Positions 9,041 through 63,153 of a stretch of 64,000 nucleotides of DNA are shown piece after piece. A program made the position numbers and the translations under genes. The notes under the pieces were generated by a model. That model made no database searches. It saw only the letters and a program-made list of their open reading frames with translations, and was not told the DNA's origin. The stretch comes from Escherichia coli. GTDB lineage: Bacteria > Pseudomonadota > Gammaproteobacteria > Enterobacterales > Enterobacteriaceae. How positions within the stretch are numbered: the stretch's first letter is position 1; each line of letters opens with the position of its first letter. The DNA lies in the NCBI RefSeq assembly GCF_044324875.1, contig NZ_CP172185.1; one strand, written 5' to 3'.

Positions 9041-9832
9041 ATGGCAACGCCAGTGAAGAAGTGGTTATTGCGCGTTGCCCCCTGGTTTTTACCGGTGGGC
9101 ATCGTGGCGGTGTGGCAACTGGCCTCCTCAGTTGGCTGGCTGTCGACGCGTATTTTGCCCTCTCCGGAAGGAGTGGTGACGGCGTTCTGGACGCTCTCCG
9201 CCAGCGGCGAATTGTGGCAGCATCTGGCGATCAGCTCCTGGCGGGCGTTGATTGGCTTTTCAATTGGCGGATCGCTGGGGTTGATTTTGGGACTGATTAG
9301 CGGGCTATCTCGCTGGGGAGAACGGCTGCTGGATACCTCCATTCAGATGTTGCGTAACGTGCCGCATCTGGCGCTGATCCCGCTGGTGATTTTGTGGTTT
9401 GGCATTGATGAATCCGCAAAAATCTTTCTGGTGGCGCTCGGCACGCTATTCCCCATTTATATCAACACCTGGCACGGCATCCGTAATATCGATCGCGGTC
9501 TGGTGGAAATGGCGCGTAGCTATGGATTATCCGGCATCCCGCTGTTTATCCATGTGATCCTGCCTGGTGCCCTGCCCTCCATTATGGTCGGCGTGCGTTT
9601 TGCGTTGGGCCTGATGTGGCTGACGCTGATTGTTGCCGAAACCATTTCTGCCAATTCCGGCATTGGTTATCTGGCGATGAATGCGCGGGAGTTTCTGCAA
9701 ACGGACGTGGTGGTTGTCGCCATTATTCTTTACGCCCTGCTCGGCAAACTTGCTGACGTCAGCGCGCAGCTGTTAGAGCGCCTCTGGTTGCGCTGGAACC
9801 CGGCTTATCATTTGAAGGAGGCCACGGTATGA
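9041..9832 (+). CDS. ssuC: aliphatic sulfonate ABC transporter permease
   Basis: 263 aa hydrophobic permease-like ORF. Confidence 0.9.
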
Positions 9833-10596
9833 ATACTGCTCGTCTGAACCAGGGCACACCATTGTTGCTCAATGCAGTAAGCAAACATTACGCGGAAAAT
9901 ATCGTCCTGAACCAACTGGATTTACATATTCCGGCTGGTCAGTTTGTGGCGGTGGTGGGCCGCAGCGGTGGTGGCAAAAGTACCCTGCTGCGCCTGCTGG
10001 CAGGTCTGGAAACGCCAACCGCTGGCGATGTGTTAGCGGGCACCACACCGCTGGCTGAAATTCAGGAAGACACGCGAATGATGTTTCAGGATGCGCGTCT
10101 GCTGCCGTGGAAATCGGTGATTGATAACGTTGGGTTAGGCCTTAAAGGCCAGTGGCGCGATGCCGCGCGTCGGGCGTTGGCTGCAGTAGGACTGGAGAAT
10201 CGCGCGGGGGAATGGCCTGCCGCACTTTCTGGCGGGCAGAAACAGCGTGTGGCGCTGGCAAGAGCGTTGATTCATCGACCGGGTTTATTATTGCTTGATG
10301 AACCGCTCGGGGCGCTGGACGCCTTAACGCGACTCGAGATGCAGGATTTGATTGTGTCACTTTGGCAGGAGCACGACTTTACCGTACTGTTGGTGACGCA
10401 TGATGTGAGCGAAGCGGTAGCAATGGCTGACCGGGTGTTGTTAATTGAAGAGGGAAAAATTGGTCTGGATTTGACGGTGGATATCCCCCGTCCGCGCCGG
10501 TTAGGGTCGGTGCGATTAGCGGAGCTGGAAGCGGAAGTGTTGCAACGGGTGATGCAGCGTGGGCACTCTGAACAACCGATTCGGCGTCATGGTTAA
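9829..10596 (+). CDS. ssuB: aliphatic sulfonate ABC transporter ATP-binding protein
   Basis: 255 aa with Walker A (GRSGGGKST) and ABC signature (LSGGQKQR). Confidence 0.92.
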
Positions 10597-10599
10597 TAT

Positions 10600-10800
10600 G
10601 CCGGATGTGGCGCACAAAACCAGCAGTTTCAACGGATTGTAGGCCTGATAAGACGCGTCAAGCGTCGCATCAGGCATTTGGGCACGGCTGCCGGATGCGG
10701 CGTGAACGCCTTATCCAGCCTACAAAACCAGCATTTTCAACGGACTTGTAGGCCTGACAAGACGCGTCAAGCGTCGCATCCGGCATTTTGGCTCAAAAGT
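10600..10800. repeat. REP/BIME cluster (two ~100-bp near-identical units with REP palindromes)
   Basis: Two copies of ...gccggatg(c/t)ggcg...ttcaacgga(c)ttgtaggcctga(t/c)aagacgcgtcaagcgtcgcatc(a/c)ggca... containing the characteristic REP palindrome, between convergent ssuB and pepN. Confidence 0.8.
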
Positions 10801-10801
10801 A

Positions 10802-13414
10802 TCAAGCCAGTGCTTTAGTTATCTTCTCGTACAGATCGCCAGAGAGATTTTCCAGCCCTTTCAACTGCTCCAGCGCCGCGCGCATTTTCTCCTGACGTTT
10901 GGCATCGTAACGCTTCAGGCGAATCAGCGGTTCAATCAGACGTGAAGCCACCTGCGGGTTACGGCTGTTGAGATCGGTTAGCATTTCCACCAGGAACTGG
11001 TAACCGCTGCCATCTTCGGCATGGAACGCTGCCGGGTTGCTGCCCGCAAACGCACCAATCAACGAACGAATACGGTTCGGGTTGCTCATGGTAAATGAGC
11101 GATGCTGCAACAGGCCACGCACCGTCTCCAGCACATTCGCCGCCGGGCTGGTGGCTTGCAGGATAAACCATTTATCCATCACCAGACCATCCTGATGCCA
11201 CTTGTCGTCGTACTCCTGCATCAGCGCGTCACGGCAAGGCAGCTGTGCAGCAACCGCCGCAGAAAGCGCTGCCAGCGCATCGGTCATATTGTTTGCTTCA
11301 TGGTATTGCTTGCTCACCAGCACGTCAGCCAGATGCGTTTCACCAAAAGCAAGGAAGCGCAGGCAGGCATTACGCAGAGTGCGTTTTGCAATATCTTCAT
11401 GCTCAACACGGTACTCGCTCTGGTAATTCGCGTTGTAAATAGCCAGTAGCTCATCCGCCAGTTCAGTCGCCAGAGTACGAGTGAGTGCTTCGCGTACTTC
11501 AGCAATAGCAATCGGGTCGATGATATCGAACAGTTCTGCCATTTCATTGACGGAAGGCAGCGTCAGGATTTCTGCCGCCAGTGCCGGATCAATCTTCTCA
11601 TCAAGCAGTACCGCGCGGAAAGCATCAGCCACATGCACCGGCAGAGACAGCGGCTGACCTTGCTGATGACGCGCGACGTTCAGCTTGATGTAGGTTGCCA
11701 GCAGGCTTTGCGCCGCATCCCAGCGGGAGAAATCATTACGCGCATGACGCATCAGGAAGGTCAGTTGCTGATCGCTCCACTTATATTCCAGTTTCACTGG
11801 CGCAGAGAATTCGCACAGCAGCGCAGGCACCGGCTGGAAGTAGACATTATCAAAGACAAAGGTCTGTTCCGCCTGGGTGACGTTCAGCACCGAATTGACC
11901 GGATGACCGCCTTTCTGCAACGGGATCACTTTGCCTTCGTTATCATACAGTTCGATGGCAAACGGAATATGCAGCGGCTGTTTTTCTGCCTGATCCGGCG
12001 TAGCAGGCGTACGCTGGCTGATGGTCAGGGTGTACTGCTCGGTTTCCGGATTATAGTCGTCTTTGACGGTCACAACCGGCGTACCGGACTGGCTGTACCA
12101 ACGGCGGAAATGAGAGAGATCGACATTTGACGCATCTTCCATTGCCTGAACAAAATCGTCGCAGGTTGCCGCGCTGCCATCATGGCGCTCGAAATAAAGC
12201 TGCATCCCTTTCTGGAAGTTTTCTTCGCCCAGCAGGGTGTGGATCATGCGAATCACTTCCGCGCCCTTCTCGTAAACGGTCAGGGTGTAGAAGTTGTTCA
12301 TCTCAATGACCATATCCGGGCGGATCGGGTGCGCCATCGGGCTGGCGTCTTCTGCAAACTGCAATCCGCGCATGGTGCGCACATTATTGATGCGGTTAAC
12401 TGCGCGGGAACCAAGGTCAGAGCTGAACTCCTGATCGCGGAAGACGGTTAAACCTTCTTTCAGGCTGAGCTGGAACCAGTCGCGGCAAGTCACACGGTTA
12501 CCGGTCCAGTTATGGAAATATTCATGGCCGATAACACGCTCAATATCGAGGTAATCTTTATCGGTGGCGGTGTCGGTACGGGCCAGCACATATTTGGAGT
12601 TAAAGATATTCAGACCTTTATTCTCCATTGCGCCCATATTGAAGAAATCCACCGCGACGATCATATAGATGTCGAGGTCATACTCCAGGCCGAAGCGTTC
12701 TTCATCCCATTTCATGGAGTTTTTCAGCGAGGTCATCGCCCACGGCGCACGATCAAGGTTGCCGCGATCGACGTACAGCTCCAGCGCAACTTCGCGACCA
12801 GAACGCGTGGTGAAGGTGTCGCGCAGCACGTCGAAGTCGCCTGCCACCAGCGCAAACAGGTAGCACGGTTTCGGGAACGGGTCCTGCCACTGTACCCAGT
12901 GACGTCCGTTTTCCAGTTCGCCTTGCGCAACGCGGTTACCGTTGGAAAGCAGGAAGGGATATTTGGTTTTATCGGCAATAATTTTGGTGGTAAAACGCGC
13001 CAGCACGTCCGGGCGGTCAAGATAATACGTAATATGGCGGAAACCTTCGGCTTCACACTGAGTGCAAAGCGCATCGCCTGACTGATAAAGCCCTTCCAGC
13101 GCGGTATTCGTCGCCGGGCTAATTTCATTAACGATCTTAAGCGTAAAACGCTCCGGCAAATTACTGATGACCAGTGCGCCCTCTTCTTCTTTCCAGGCGG
13201 TCCACGGCTCATCATTAATATGAACAGAAACCAGTTTAAGATCTTCGCCATCAAGACGAAGCGGAGCATCTGATGCACCATGACGGACAGCCTGGCTGAC
13301 CGCGGTAACGACCGTCTTTTGCGCGTCCAGGTCAAAGGTCAAGTCAATATCAGTAATCTGGTAATCCGGCGCACGATAATCGTGACGGTATTTGGCTTGT
13401 GGCTGTTGAGTCAT
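10802..13414 (-). CDS. pepN: aminopeptidase N
   Basis: 870 aa; zinc-binding HEYFHNWTGN and downstream E motif present. Confidence 0.95.
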   Translation of the reverse strand: MTQQPQAKYRHDYRAPDYQITDIDLTFDLDAQKTVVTAVSQAVRHGASDAPLRLDGEDLKLVSVHINDEPWTAWKEEEGALVISNLPERFTLKIVNEISPATNTALEGLYQSGDALCTQCEAEGFRHITYYLDRPDVLARFTTKIIADKTKYPFLLSNGNRVAQGELENGRHWVQWQDPFPKPCYLFALVAGDFDVLRDTFTTRSGREVALELYVDRGNLDRAPWAMTSLKNSMKWDEERFGLEYDLDIYMIVAVDFFNMGAMENKGLNIFNSKYVLARTDTATDKDYLDIERVIGHEYFHNWTGNRVTCRDWFQLSLKEGLTVFRDQEFSSDLGSRAVNRINNVRTMRGLQFAEDASPMAHPIRPDMVIEMNNFYTLTVYEKGAEVIRMIHTLLGEENFQKGMQLYFERHDGSAATCDDFVQAMEDASNVDLSHFRRWYSQSGTPVVTVKDDYNPETEQYTLTISQRTPATPDQAEKQPLHIPFAIELYDNEGKVIPLQKGGHPVNSVLNVTQAEQTFVFDNVYFQPVPALLCEFSAPVKLEYKWSDQQLTFLMRHARNDFSRWDAAQSLLATYIKLNVARHQQGQPLSLPVHVADAFRAVLLDEKIDPALAAEILTLPSVNEMAELFDIIDPIAIAEVREALTRTLATELADELLAIYNANYQSEYRVEHEDIAKRTLRNACLRFLAFGETHLADVLVSKQYHEANNMTDALAALSAAVAAQLPCRDALMQEYDDKWHQDGLVMDKWFILQATSPAANVLETVRGLLQHRSFTMSNPNRIRSLIGAFAGSNPAAFHAEDGSGYQFLVEMLTDLNSRNPQVASRLIEPLIRLKRYDAKRQEKMRAALEQLKGLENLSGDLYEKITKALA

Positions 13415-16603: not shown

Positions 16604-16634
16604 AATCCGCATTCTTATTGCGGATTAGTTTTTT
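16604..16634 (+). terminator. second hairpin plus T-run in asnS-ompF intergenic, immediately abutting IS200 left end
   Basis: aatccgca-ttcttat-tgcggatt (8-bp stem) followed by agtttttt; the IS200-shared sequence starts right after. Confidence 0.5.
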
Positions 16635-17346
16635 GTGCACAGAAAACCCCCAGCTAGGCTGGGGGTTCCGGAAAGCTTTCAGCTTTGAGCCAGTTATTAA
16701 AACCCCTTTTGATTTGTTAAAACACCTTGCGGTCTGGCAACTGCAAGTGTCAAACAAGAAATCAAAAGGGGGTCCCAATGGGGAACGAAAAGAGCTTAGC
16801 GCACACCCGATGGAACTGTAAATATCACATAGTATTTGCGCCAAAATACCGAAGACAGGTGTTCTACAGAGAGAAGCGTAGAGCAATAGGCTGTATTTTG
16901 AGAAAGCTGTGTGAGTGGAAAAGTGTACGGATTCTGGAAGCTGAATGCTGTGCAGATCATATCCATATGCTTGTGGAGATCCCGCCCAAAATGAGCGTAT
17001 CAGGCTTTATGGGATATCTGAAAGGGAAAAGCAGTCTGATGCTTTACGAGCAGTTTGGTGATTTGAAATTCAAATACAGGAACAGGGAGTTCTGGTGCAG
17101 AGGGTATTACGTCGATACGGTGGGTAAGAACACGGCGAAGATACAGGATTACATAAAGCACCAGCTTGAAGAGGATAAAATGGGAGAGCAGTTATCGATT
17201 CCCTATCCGGGCAGCCCGTTTACGGGCCGTAAGTAACGAAGTTGGATGCAAATGTCAGATCGTGTGCGCCTGTTAGGGCGCGGCTGGTAAGAGAGCCTTA
17301 TAGGCGCATTTGAAAAACCTCCGGCTATGCCGGAGGATATTTATTC
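16634..17346 (+). mobile_element. IS200 insertion sequence, copy 1 (IS200/IS605 family, about 713 bp)
   Basis: Limits set by where the sequence stops matching the second copy (23755..24469, inverted); contains tnpA, a left-end hairpin cccccagc-tag-gctggggg and an RBS-sequestering stem; ends are approximate to within 3 bp. Confidence 0.85.
16778..17236 (+). CDS. tnpA: IS200 transposase TnpA (HUH Y1 transposase)
   Basis: 152 aa from MGNEKSLAHTRWNCKYHIVFAPKYRR...; the HxH motif (ADHIHMLVEI) is visible and the protein closely resembles Salmonella IS200 TnpA as recalled from memory. Confidence 0.9.
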   Translation: MGNEKSLAHTRWNCKYHIVFAPKYRRQVFYREKRRAIGCILRKLCEWKSVRILEAECCADHIHMLVEIPPKMSVSGFMGYLKGKSSLMLYEQFGDLKFKYRNREFWCRGYYVDTVGKNTAKIQDYIKHQLEEDKMGEQLSIPYPGSPFTGRK

Positions 17347-23754: not shown

Positions 23755-24469
23755 GAATAAATATCCTCCGGCATAGCCGGAGGTTTTTCAAATGCGCCTA
23801 TAAGGCTCTCTTACCAGCCGCGCCCTAACAGGCGCACACGATCTGACATTTGCATCCAACTTCGTTACTTACGGCCCGTAAACGGGCTGCCCGGATAGGG
23901 AATCGATAACTGCTCTCCCATTTTATCCTCTTCAAGCTGGTGCTTTATGTAATCCTGTATCTTCGCCGTGTTCTTACCCACCGTATCGACGTAATACCCT
24001 CTGCACCAGAACTCCCTGTTCCTGTATTTGAATTTCAAATCACCAAACTGCTCGTAAAGCATCAGACTGCTTTTCCCTTTCAGATATCCCATAAAGCCTG
24101 ATACGCTCATTTTGGGCGGGATCTCCACAAGCATATGGATATGATCTGCACAGCATTCAGCTTCCAGAATCCGTACACTTTTCCACTCACACAGCTTTCT
24201 CAAAATACAGCCTATTGCTCTACGCTTCTCTCTGTAGAACACCTGTCTTCGGTATTTTGGCGCAAATACTATGTGATATTTACAGTTCCATCGGGTGTGC
24301 GCTAAGCTCTTTTCGTTCCCCATTGGGACCCCCTTTTGATTTCTTGTTTGACACTTGCAGTTGCCAGACCGCAAGGTGTTTTAACAAATCAAAAGGGGTT
24401 TTAATAACTGGCTCAAAGCTGAAAGCTTTCCGGAACCCCCAGCCTAGCTGGGGGTTTTCTGTGCACAAA
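23755..24469 (-). mobile_element. IS200 insertion sequence, copy 2 (inverted relative to copy 1)
   Basis: Reverse complement matches copy 1 over the full element including tnpA (identical 169-aa ORF translation); ends set by loss of identity. Confidence 0.85.
23865..24323 (-). CDS. tnpA: IS200 transposase TnpA
   Basis: ORF translation identical to the copy-1 ORF; 152 aa from MGNEKSLAHT... Confidence 0.9.
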   Translation of the reverse strand: MGNEKSLAHTRWNCKYHIVFAPKYRRQVFYREKRRAIGCILRKLCEWKSVRILEAECCADHIHMLVEIPPKMSVSGFMGYLKGKSSLMLYEQFGDLKFKYRNREFWCRGYYVDTVGKNTAKIQDYIKHQLEEDKMGEQLSIPYPGSPFTGRK

Positions 24470-24492
24470 GAAAAGGCGGCATTGCTGCCGCC
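24470..24492 (-). terminator. rho-independent terminator of mukB, abutting IS200 copy 2 left end
   Basis: Hairpin ggcggcagcaatgccgcc followed on the minus strand by ttttcttt, 5 nt after the mukB stop. Confidence 0.65.
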
Positions 24493-62857: not shown

Positions 62858-63153
62858 AATGGCTCACTCAAGCTTGCTCACGATTGATTCCAGTAACAAA
62901 CCGTATTGTGTAATTATTTCTATAGCAGTTCGCTATATAGGCTTGTATACATCGAATAATTTGAAAATCAAAGAGATAGGTAGATTTTCACTCGAAAGTA
63001 GTATTACGTGTAAGTGAGGAGTAATTATTGTTCGGTATCAAAGGGAGACAAAAAAAGCGCCCGCAGGAGATTTAACGGTACTTACTCCTCTTGCTGATTT
63101 CCTTATTTTTCAATAAGTAAACAAAAACAAGGGGAGCAAATTATCACAAATAA

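What the first reader, a model, noticed from the sequence alone, without database searches (positions are those of the whole stretch)
10597..10800. Tandem REP/BIME units between convergent ssuB and pepN
Two near-identical units of about 100 bp with REP palindromes fill the convergent intergenic space. BIMEs are known to bind IHF and gyrase, stabilise upstream mRNA, and act as targets for some IS elements and RAYT transposases. Copy number at such loci varies between strains.
Basis: partly seen in the sequence, partly recalled or inferred. Interest (0 to 1): 0.15.

Follow-up and report, generated by a model that had tools for sequence, protein, structure and literature searches.

The report
Ordinary REP/BIME-2 repeat between ssuB and pepN
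The 205-base gap between the convergent genes ssuB and pepN holds a textbook E. coli REP/BIME-2 palindrome cluster, a well-known repeat family, which is present in about 41% of complete E. coli genomes and replaced by a plain hairpin in the rest.

Summary
The intergenic space 10597-10801 lies between ssuB (+) and pepN (-). It holds four REP-derived palindromes in alternating orientation: a Y remnant lacking 18 nt, then Z2, Y and Z2. These form two direct units of 90 and 109 nt, about 93% identical over their shared part. REP2-linker-REP3 aligns almost base for base with the Y/Z2 units of K-12 REP325 and passes the Rfam naRNA4 threshold (82 bits against 59.5). This is a BIME-2-type element, not the IHF-binding BIME-1 type. 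The only IHF-consensus match is at chance level.

Among 5426 complete E. coli genomes:
- 2062 carry the uninterrupted BIME.
- 3166, including K-12 and O157:H7, have a 42-nt spacer with one perfect hairpin and different last seven ssuB codons.
- 186 carry IS1397 in the loop of REP4. The two orientations and two target duplications indicate two independent insertions.
- 36 carry an extra REP.

The most likely role is a pair of bidirectional RNA 3'-end hairpins that attenuate read-through and protect the mRNA. It is probably also a gyrase site and a RAYT/IS1397 substrate. These roles are inferred, not shown. The element is already known and of low interest.

The parts
9829..10596 (+). ssuB (aliphatic sulfonate ABC transporter ATPase), upstream gene on the + strand; stop codon TAA at 10594-10596
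   Evidence: ORF. NF008420 at 496 bits, cut-off 395. The last 7 codons (QPIRRHG) differ from K-12 (TRLRKQG) and match Citrobacter werkmanii.
10599..10613 (+). REP1: remnant of a Y-type REP. Only the head half (TGCCGGATGTGGCGC) remains; 18 nt are missing relative to REP3. No local hairpin forms.
   Evidence: Repeat D6 (13/14 identical to 10689-10702). DNA fold z = 0.05. The same deletion is present in all BIME-allele strains examined.
10614..10638 (.). Spacer 1 (ACAAAACCAGCAGTTTCAACGGATT), a copy of spacer 2. Contains a 1-mismatch IHF-consensus match at chance level.
   Evidence: Repeat D4 (23 nt, 96%, spacing 108). IHF scan.
10639..10676 (+). REP2: Z2-type REP with 5' GTAG on the + strand. It is the best-preserved palindrome of the four.
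   Evidence: Alignment to K-12 REP325 Z2 (37 of 38 positions). RNA hairpin -21.8 kcal/mol (+ strand) and -21.3 kcal/mol (- strand), z -5.7 and -6.8.
10677..10688 (.). Short head-to-head linker (TTTGGGCACGGC), the equivalent of the REP325/naRNA linker
   Evidence: It shares the GGCAC core with REP325 linkers.
10689..10723 (-). REP3: Y-type REP. GTAG is on the - strand and CTAC is at 10720-10723 on the + strand.
   Evidence: 33 of 35 positions identical to K-12 REP325 Y. RNA hairpin -18.7 kcal/mol (- strand) and -15.1 kcal/mol (+ strand).
10642..10720 (-). Rfam RF02564 (naRNA4) match: the Y-linker-Z2 unit read in the pepN sense direction
   Evidence: 82.2 bits against a gathering score of 59.5, E = 4e-13. 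The + strand scores 52 bits, below threshold.
10724..10747 (.). Spacer 2 (AAAACCAGCATTTTCAACGGACTT), the tail-to-tail spacer; locus-specific sequence
   Evidence: Found at one place per genome, at this locus in the rows listed. Unrelated to the REP325 tail-to-tail spacer.
10748..10785 (+). REP4: Z2-derived REP with 5' GTAG on the + strand. Two substitutions (GACAAG, ATCCGGC) weaken its stem. It is the IS1397 insertion site in other strains.
   Evidence: RNA hairpin -15.3 kcal/mol (+ strand) and -15.6 kcal/mol (- strand), z -1.2 and -1.8. IS1397 lies between GACGCGTCA and AGCGTC in L002 and L003.
10786..10801 (.). 16-nt tail (TTTTGGCTCAAAAGTA) between REP4 and the pepN stop codon
   Evidence: Sequence.
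10802..13414 (-). pepN (aminopeptidase N), the convergent gene on the - strand; stop codon at 10802-10804
   Evidence: ORF. TIGR02414 at 1257 bits, cut-off 718.

Best explanation
This is a BIME-2-type cluster of REP (palindromic unit) sequences. Two tandem units were made by a local duplication of a [Y REP - spacer - Z2 REP] block, and the first Y later lost 18 nt.

It is non-coding and lies in the shared 3' region of two convergent transcription units. Read as RNA in either direction it gives a series of stable hairpins.
- The ssuB transcript meets REP2, then REP3, then REP4.
- The pepN transcript meets REP4, then REP3, then REP2.

By analogy with characterised REPs, these hairpins most likely (i) attenuate read-through into the antisense strand of the opposite gene, partly through Rho because no U-tract terminator is present, and (ii) block 3'-to-5' exonucleases and so stabilise the upstream mRNA.

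As DNA, the element is probably a gyrase cleavage site. It is a substrate or product of the REP-associated tyrosine transposase (RAYT, TnpA-REP), which would account for its duplication and turnover. It is demonstrably a landing site for IS1397.

Shown here: identity, anatomy, predicted folding, population polymorphism and IS1397 targeting. Inferred: termination and stabilisation, gyrase binding and RAYT involvement.
For: Identity.
- The REP2-linker-REP3 stretch aligns to three K-12 REP325 units almost base for base.
- The Rfam naRNA4 model, which is a Y-linker-Z2 unit, scores 82.2 bits against a gathering score of 59.5.
- GTAG/CTAC tails are present on REP2-4.
- The stems carry the internal mismatch typical of REPs.
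- The element is extragenic between two CDS.
- The query matches a median of 34 places per genome, that is, dispersed REPs.

BIME-2 definition: y + z2, short linker, tandem copies, copy number variable between strains (PMC3333891). All of these are seen here.

Local duplication: the 24-nt spacer occurs only at this locus but twice within it.

Structure: fold z = -6.4 and -7.2 for the whole spacer. Individual RNA hairpins range from -15 to -22 kcal/mol.

Functional analogy.
- The allele that lacks the BIME has a single perfect 12-13-bp hairpin at the same position (RNA -25 to -27 kcal/mol). Some 3' hairpin is therefore kept at this junction in all of the sequences examined.
- C. werkmanii has a terminator-like hairpin plus one Y REP at the same junction.
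- REP325 acts as a partly Rho-dependent terminator and an mRNA stabiliser, and REPs between convergent genes correlate with higher expression of both genes (bioRxiv 10.64898/2026.03.23.713779).
- Gyrase cleavage sites are over-represented in BIME-2, mostly in y REPs (PMC6379681).

IS1397 is inserted in the REP4 loop in 146 + 40 genomes. The opposite orientations and different target duplications (GTCA and TCA) indicate two independent events.
Against: No expression, 3'-end or protein-binding data exist for this locus.

No intrinsic terminator (stem plus U-run) is predicted on either strand.

58% of complete E. coli genomes lack the element, so any function is dispensable or replaceable.

The element shows decay:
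- REP1 is a half-palindrome.
- REP4 in this window has two stem-weakening substitutions (z only -1.2 to -1.8).
- Strain Trh52 has lost 12 nt of REP4.
- IS1397 insertion is tolerated.

Confidence: 0.85

Rival explanations
1. Neutral or selfish DNA. The cluster is a RAYT-dispersed and locally duplicated repeat that merely persists in a permissive convergent intergenic site and has no host function at this locus.
For: It is absent from 3166 of 5426 genomes. It shows decay: the REP1 deletion, the REP4 substitutions and the 12-nt deletion in Trh52. IS1397 insertion splitting REP4 is tolerated in 186 genomes. Variable copy number is typical of BIME-2 (PMC3333891).
Against: The alternative allele still carries a strong hairpin at the same place, and so does Citrobacter. 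This suggests that a 3' hairpin is needed here and that the REPs can supply it. REPs between convergent genes correlate with higher expression. This rival is not mutually exclusive with the main explanation.
Confidence: 0.3
2. naRNA4-like nucleoid-associated RNA. The Y-linker-Z2 unit, transcribed as part of the pepN 3' UTR, binds HU and helps condense the chromosome, as proposed for REP325.
For: The Rfam RF02564 match is above the gathering score on the pepN-sense strand. The sequence is near-identical to REP325 units.
Against: The Rfam model is simply a generic BIME-2 unit, so a match says nothing about function. There is only one complete unit here against six in REP325. Harris et al. 2026 report no effect of REP325 deletion or overexpression on nucleoid volume and no stable HU-DNA-naRNA4 complex. 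K-12 and most other E. coli lack this copy.
Confidence: 0.05
3. IHF-binding BIME-1 (RIB/RIP) element, as implied by the first reader's mention of IHF.
For: A 12-of-13 match to WATCAANNNNTTR lies in spacer 1 at 10627-10639.
Against: That match class is at chance frequency: 60 observed against 56.6 expected. The second spacer copy has a further mismatch caused by the 1-nt insertion. There is no z1 REP, since both Z-type REPs align to z2. The y/z2 composition defines BIME-2, and the conserved L linker with an IHF site belongs to BIME-1 (PMC3333891).
Confidence: 0.03
4. Chance palindromes or an assembly artefact.
For: Tandem Repeats Finder gives no array.
Against: Motif enrichment. Fold z-scores. 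The same structure is present in more than 2000 independent complete genomes.
Confidence: 0.01

Closest known systems
BIME-2 family of E. coli (Gilson/Bachellier/Hofnung nomenclature, as summarised in Ton-Hoang et al. 2012, PMC3333891); type example REP325 between yjdM and yjdN of K-12
   Same: Alternating Y and Z2 REPs. A short head-to-head linker with a GGCAC core. Tandem units. GTAG tails. Stem mismatches. A 3'-UTR or intergenic position. Copy-number variation between strains. REP2-linker-REP3 is about 90% identical to a REP325 unit.
   Different: Only two units, the first damaged, against six in REP325. The period is 108-109 nt against 100 nt. The tail-to-tail spacer (24 nt, AAAACCAGCATTTTCAACGGACTT) is unrelated to that of REP325 and is unique to this locus. 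The element lies between convergent genes rather than inside an operon. It is absent from K-12 at this position.
Rfam RF02564 naRNA4 (CssrE)
   Same: Passes the gathering threshold over the full 77-position model on the - strand.
   Different: The model describes a generic Y-linker-Z2 BIME-2 unit. Transcription, processing into a discrete RNA and HU binding are untested here, and the proposed nucleoid function is itself disputed (Harris et al. 2026).
BIME-1 / RIB-RIP elements (Y + Z1 + L linker with an IHF site)
   Same: [quoted passage not shown]
   Different: No Z1, no conserved L linker, and an IHF motif only at chance level.
IS1397 target sites (IS3 family; reported to insert specifically into E. 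coli palindromic units, cited in PMC1525189 and PMC3333891)
   Same: In 186 complete genomes IS1397 sits in the loop of REP4 of this very BIME. It occurs in both orientations, with 4-bp (GTCA) and 3-bp (TCA) target duplications.
   Different: The window itself carries no IS1397 at this site.
REPINs / RAYT-associated REP doublets (Bertels and Rainey 2011, PMC3116915; Nunvar et al. 2010, PMC2817692)
   Same: Two inverted REPs (REP3 and REP4) can pair into one long imperfect hairpin, as in the - strand minimum-free-energy fold.
   Different: No RAYT gene was noticed in the 64-kb window, and it was not systematically searched. Mobility of this doublet as a unit is not supported, because its spacer is single-locus.
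K-12-type ssuB-pepN spacer (42 nt with one perfect hairpin)
   Same: Same position and same presumed role as a 3' hairpin for both convergent transcripts.
   Different: A single 12-13-bp perfect stem (CCGAATGGCGGC / GCCGCCATTCGG). No GTAG tail and no REP consensus. It comes with seven different C-terminal codons of ssuB.

Membership tests
REP / palindromic unit (E. coli y, z1, z2) | Imperfect palindrome of 30-40 nt able to form a stem-loop, with an internal stem mismatch | tested here: met
   REP2, REP3 and REP4 fold as 7 bp + internal loop + 4-5 bp stems. REP2 has z -5.5 to -6.8. REP3 and REP4 are weaker. REP1 does not fold (z = 0.05) and is only a remnant.
REP / palindromic unit (E. coli y, z1, z2) | Conserved GTAG tetranucleotide 5' of the stem foot | tested here: met
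   GTAG lies at 10639-10642 (+), 10720-10723 (-) and 10748-10751 (+). It is lost from REP1.
REP / palindromic unit (E. coli y, z1, z2) | Sequence match to the y or z2 consensus | tested here: met
   Alignment to K-12 REP325 Y and Z2 units: Z2 37 of 38, Y 33 of 35. Rfam RF02564 at 82.2 bits.
REP / palindromic unit (E. coli y, z1, z2) | Extragenic location and many dispersed copies per genome | tested here: met
   Lies between the two stop codons. The 501-nt query hits a median of 34 places per genome; this is a lower bound because of the limit of 40 pieces per record.
BIME-2 | Composed of y and z2 REPs in alternating orientation | tested here: met
   The order is Y(remnant, +) - Z2 - Y - Z2, with heads and tails facing alternately.
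BIME-2 | Short linker between the paired REPs, and tandem repetition of the unit | tested here: met
   A 12-nt head-to-head linker similar to that of REP325. Two units at 108-109-nt spacing.
BIME-2 | Copy number at a locus varies between strains | tested here: met
   0 REPs in 3166 genomes, the 4-REP form in 2062, a 5-REP form in 36, and a 12-nt deletion in Trh52.
BIME-2 | In vivo gyrase binding and cleavage | not testable with these tools
   Known for the family only (PMC6379681). K-12, the strain background used there (W3110 derivative), lacks this copy.
BIME-1 (RIB/RIP) | z1 REP plus a conserved long L linker carrying an IHF site | tested here: not met
   Both Z REPs are of z2 length and sequence. 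The IHF consensus is matched only with 1 mismatch, at background frequency.
Rfam RF02564 naRNA4 | Covariance-model score at or above the gathering threshold | tested here: met
   82.2 bits against 59.5, full-length match, - strand.
Rfam RF02564 naRNA4 | Expressed as a discrete HU-associated RNA | not testable with these tools
   No expression data. The function is disputed in the literature.
Intrinsic (Rho-independent) terminator | G+C-rich stem-loop followed by a U-run | tested here: not met
   0 sites in 10300-11100 on either strand. REP4 is followed by only TTTT on the + strand.
REPIN / RAYT system | A cognate RAYT (tnpA-REP) gene in the genome, flanked by REPs | not tested
   Only 64 kb of the genome is available. 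The two Y1 transposase genes seen are IS200C tnpA, not RAYT.

The most novel reading that the evidence does not exclude
The ssuB-pepN junction is a natural allelic series within one species: a plain hairpin, about 3.5 REPs, about 4.5 REPs, and the BIME split by IS1397 in either orientation. The boundary of the polymorphic block lies inside ssuB, whose last 7 codons are replaced. If the alleles differ measurably in pepN or ssuB 3'-end formation, mRNA level or antisense read-through, the locus would be a ready-made natural experiment on what REPs do between convergent genes. It would also illustrate BIMEs marking recombination or replacement breakpoints.
Probability: 0.25. Interest if true: 0.2.

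Novelty: already known. Interest (0 to 1): 0.08.

Why it matters
It matters little beyond correct annotation. REP/BIME elements have been described since the 1980s, and several hundred are annotated in the E. coli genome (355 REP elements in PMC4550694; about 300 BIMEs in PMC10592627).

The useful by-products are:
- a clean census showing that this particular BIME is a presence/absence polymorphism (about 41% against 58% of complete genomes);
- two independent IS1397 insertions in the same REP loop, which confirm the known target specificity in natural populations;
- the practical warning that an Rfam naRNA4 hit only means a Y-Z2 BIME-2 unit.

The allelic series could serve anyone testing the role of REPs as terminators and mRNA stabilisers between convergent genes.

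Tried and rejected
1. Tandem Repeats Finder at minimum score 30 found no array. The repeat had to be shown with the repeat finder.

2. MAFFT placed the 18-nt gap at the start of unit 1. I prefer the internal-deletion reading because the 14-nt head matches REP3 at 13 of 14 positions (repeat D6).

3. The genome-contig scan with SsuB was swamped by generic ABC-ATPase motifs. Only one informative relative came back, Citrobacter werkmanii, so the cross-species history of the junction rests on a single outgroup.

4. The left-junction IS1397 queries gave 146 and 182 genomes. Together with the other classes this exceeds 5426. I could not explain the overlap, so I used the cleaner right-junction queries, which gave 146 and 40. 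The classes then sum to 5414 of 5426.

5. IHF site: chance level.

6. Intrinsic terminator: none found.

7. Other REP-head hits in the window: the two I read (45529 and 54293) are unstructured sequence that reads as coding, and 11988 lies within the pepN ORF; none was taken as a REP.

8. I checked whether the 222-bp RRS elements, which came up in the BIME-2 literature search, could be relevant. They lie near lysO and dusC and I estimate them to be outside this window.

9. The primary IS1397 papers (PMC94167, PMC169884) are not held. The statement that IS1397 makes 3-4-bp duplications in the REP loop rests on what the sequences show here plus my own recollection.

10. No paper mentioning pepN, ssuB and REP together was found.

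Full report
**What is there.** The window encodes ssuD, ssuC and ssuB on the + strand. ssuB is 9829-10596 and matches NF008420 at 496 bits. pepN is on the - strand at 10802-13414 and matches TIGR02414 at 1257 bits. The two stop codons face each other across 205 nt, 10597-10801. This spacer contains four REP-derived segments:
- REP1, 10599-10613: the head half of a Y REP only.
- REP2, 10639-10676: Z2, with GTAG on the + strand.
- REP3, 10689-10723: Y, with GTAG on the - strand.
- REP4, 10748-10785: Z2-derived, with GTAG on the + strand.

The segments are separated by two copies of a 24-nt spacer (10614-10638 and 10724-10747) and by a 12-nt head-to-head linker (10677-10688). A further 16 nt separate REP4 from the pepN stop codon.

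**Is the repeat real?** The repeat finder gives three families in register: 47 nt at 94% with spacing 109, 23 nt at 96% with spacing 108, and 14 nt at 93% with spacing 90. The units are therefore about 90 and 109 nt long. The first has lost 18 nt from inside its Y palindrome. Tandem Repeats Finder misses the array.

The REP head motif occurs 7 times in the window against 0.92 expected, and four of those lie in this spacer. Two of the other three (45529, 54293) were read and are unstructured sequence that reads as coding; the third (11988) falls inside the pepN ORF. The GTAG-tail motif occurs only in this spacer. The spacer folds much better than shuffled sequence on both strands, with z = -6.4 and -7.2. 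Single RNA hairpins range from -15 to -22 kcal/mol. REP1 does not fold on its own.

**What kind of repeat?** REP2-linker-REP3 aligns to three units of K-12 REP325, the reference Y/Z2 array. Z2 matches at 37 of 38 positions, Y at 33 of 35, and the linker shares a GGCAC core. The Rfam model built on that unit (RF02564, naRNA4) matches 10642-10720 on the - strand at 82.2 bits against a gathering score of 59.5.

By the published definition, BIME-2 consists of y + z2 with a short linker, in tandem copies whose number varies between strains (PMC3333891). This element is BIME-2-like. It is not BIME-1: there is no z1 REP, and the only IHF-consensus match has one mismatch at background frequency, 60 observed against 56.6 expected.

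The tail-to-tail spacer is unrelated to that of REP325. It occurs at one place per genome, at this locus in the rows listed. The two units therefore arose by a local duplication and not by insertion of a dispersed composite.

Among 5426 complete genomes:

| Allele at the ssuB-pepN junction | Genomes |
|---|---|
| Uninterrupted BIME | 2062 |
| K-12-type 42-nt spacer | 3166 |
| IS1397 in REP4, one orientation, duplication GTCA | 146 |
| IS1397 in REP4, other orientation, duplication TCA | 40 |
| Unresolved | 12 |

- The K-12-type spacer contains one perfect hairpin, CCGAATGGCGGC-gctatt-GCCGCCATTCGG, and no REP.
- The IS1397 copies sit exactly in the loop of REP4, in both orientations and with different target duplications, so they represent two independent events.
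- 36 genomes carry an extra, degenerate Y-like REP plus linker after REP2.
- Strain Trh52 has lost 12 nt of REP4.
- The 18-nt deletion in REP1 is shared by every BIME allele I looked at, so it is old.
- REP4 in this window carries two substitutions that weaken its stem relative to strains such as NWU_1.

**The polymorphic block reaches into ssuB.** The last seven codons read QPIRRHG in the window and TRLRKQG in K-12, and the protein length is unchanged. Citrobacter werkmanii has QPIRRHG. At the same junction it has a terminator-like hairpin followed by a single Y REP. This suggests that the BIME-linked ssuB end is the older one and that the K-12 block is a replacement. That inference rests on one outgroup.

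**How it most likely works.** No intrinsic terminator is predicted on either strand, yet the sequences examined (both E. coli alleles and Citrobacter) keep at least one strong hairpin here. Two lines of published work bear on this:
- REP325 is a partly Rho-dependent terminator and an mRNA stabiliser. REPs between convergent genes are associated with higher expression of both genes, and about 40% of such REPs coincide with predicted bidirectional terminators (bioRxiv 10.64898/2026.03.23.713779).
- Gyrase cleavage is enriched in BIME-2, chiefly in y REPs (PMC6379681).

I therefore take the element to be a bidirectional 3'-end hairpin array, and probably also a gyrase site. It would be created and remodelled by the REP-associated transposase and used as a target by IS1397. 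Only the IS1397 part is directly shown here.

The naRNA4/HU nucleoid reading is unlikely. The Rfam match merely recognises a BIME-2 unit, and the function is disputed. A purely neutral reading cannot be excluded, given that 58% of genomes lack the element and that it shows decay.

**Verdict.** The element is already known in kind and is of low interest.

Noticed in passing
window 16629-17346 (+) and 23755-24472 (-): Two 718-nt, 100% identical copies of IS200C lie in inverted orientation, one between asnS and ompF and one between ldtD and mukB. They bracket ompF-aspC-gloC-mepK-ldtD, with 6408 nt between the arms. They are the source of the two Rfam STnc490 hits. Most complete E. coli genomes cover only 95% of this 14-kb stretch. 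Strain E300010 has both copies. Such a pair could mediate inversion of the enclosed segment.
   Followed up: partly
window 10573-10596 versus L001 (K-12-like strain 6FA) 524-547: The last seven codons of ssuB differ completely between the BIME allele (QPIRRHG) and the K-12 allele (TRLRKQG), with the same protein length. Citrobacter werkmanii shares the window's version. The allelic block boundary therefore lies inside the coding sequence, which suggests replacement by recombination with a diverged donor.
   Followed up: partly
window 62948-63082 (+): Rfam STnc130 (enterobacterial sRNA) match at 125.8 bits, full length.
   Followed up: no
NZ_AKBV01000001.1 (a K-12 MG1655 assembly) 3394925-3394999; hit H105: K-12 is not known to carry IS1397. 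It nevertheless has two unannotated places matching positions 3-78 of the junction query (IS1397 end plus REP half) at 90.8%. This may be an IS1397-like end remnant in a REP.
   Followed up: no
whole window; No complete RefSeq E. coli genome is identical to the window. The best match is 99.4% over the 501-nt locus (strain PT62) and 98.9% over 14 kb (strain E300010). E300010, unlike the window, carries IS1397 and the 5-REP form at ssuB-pepN. The source appears to be an E. coli lineage not represented among the complete genomes.
   Followed up: no
The left-junction IS1397 queries count 146 and 182 genomes, whereas the right-junction queries count 146 and 40. The excess is unexplained. It may be a coverage-threshold effect.
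   Followed up: partly
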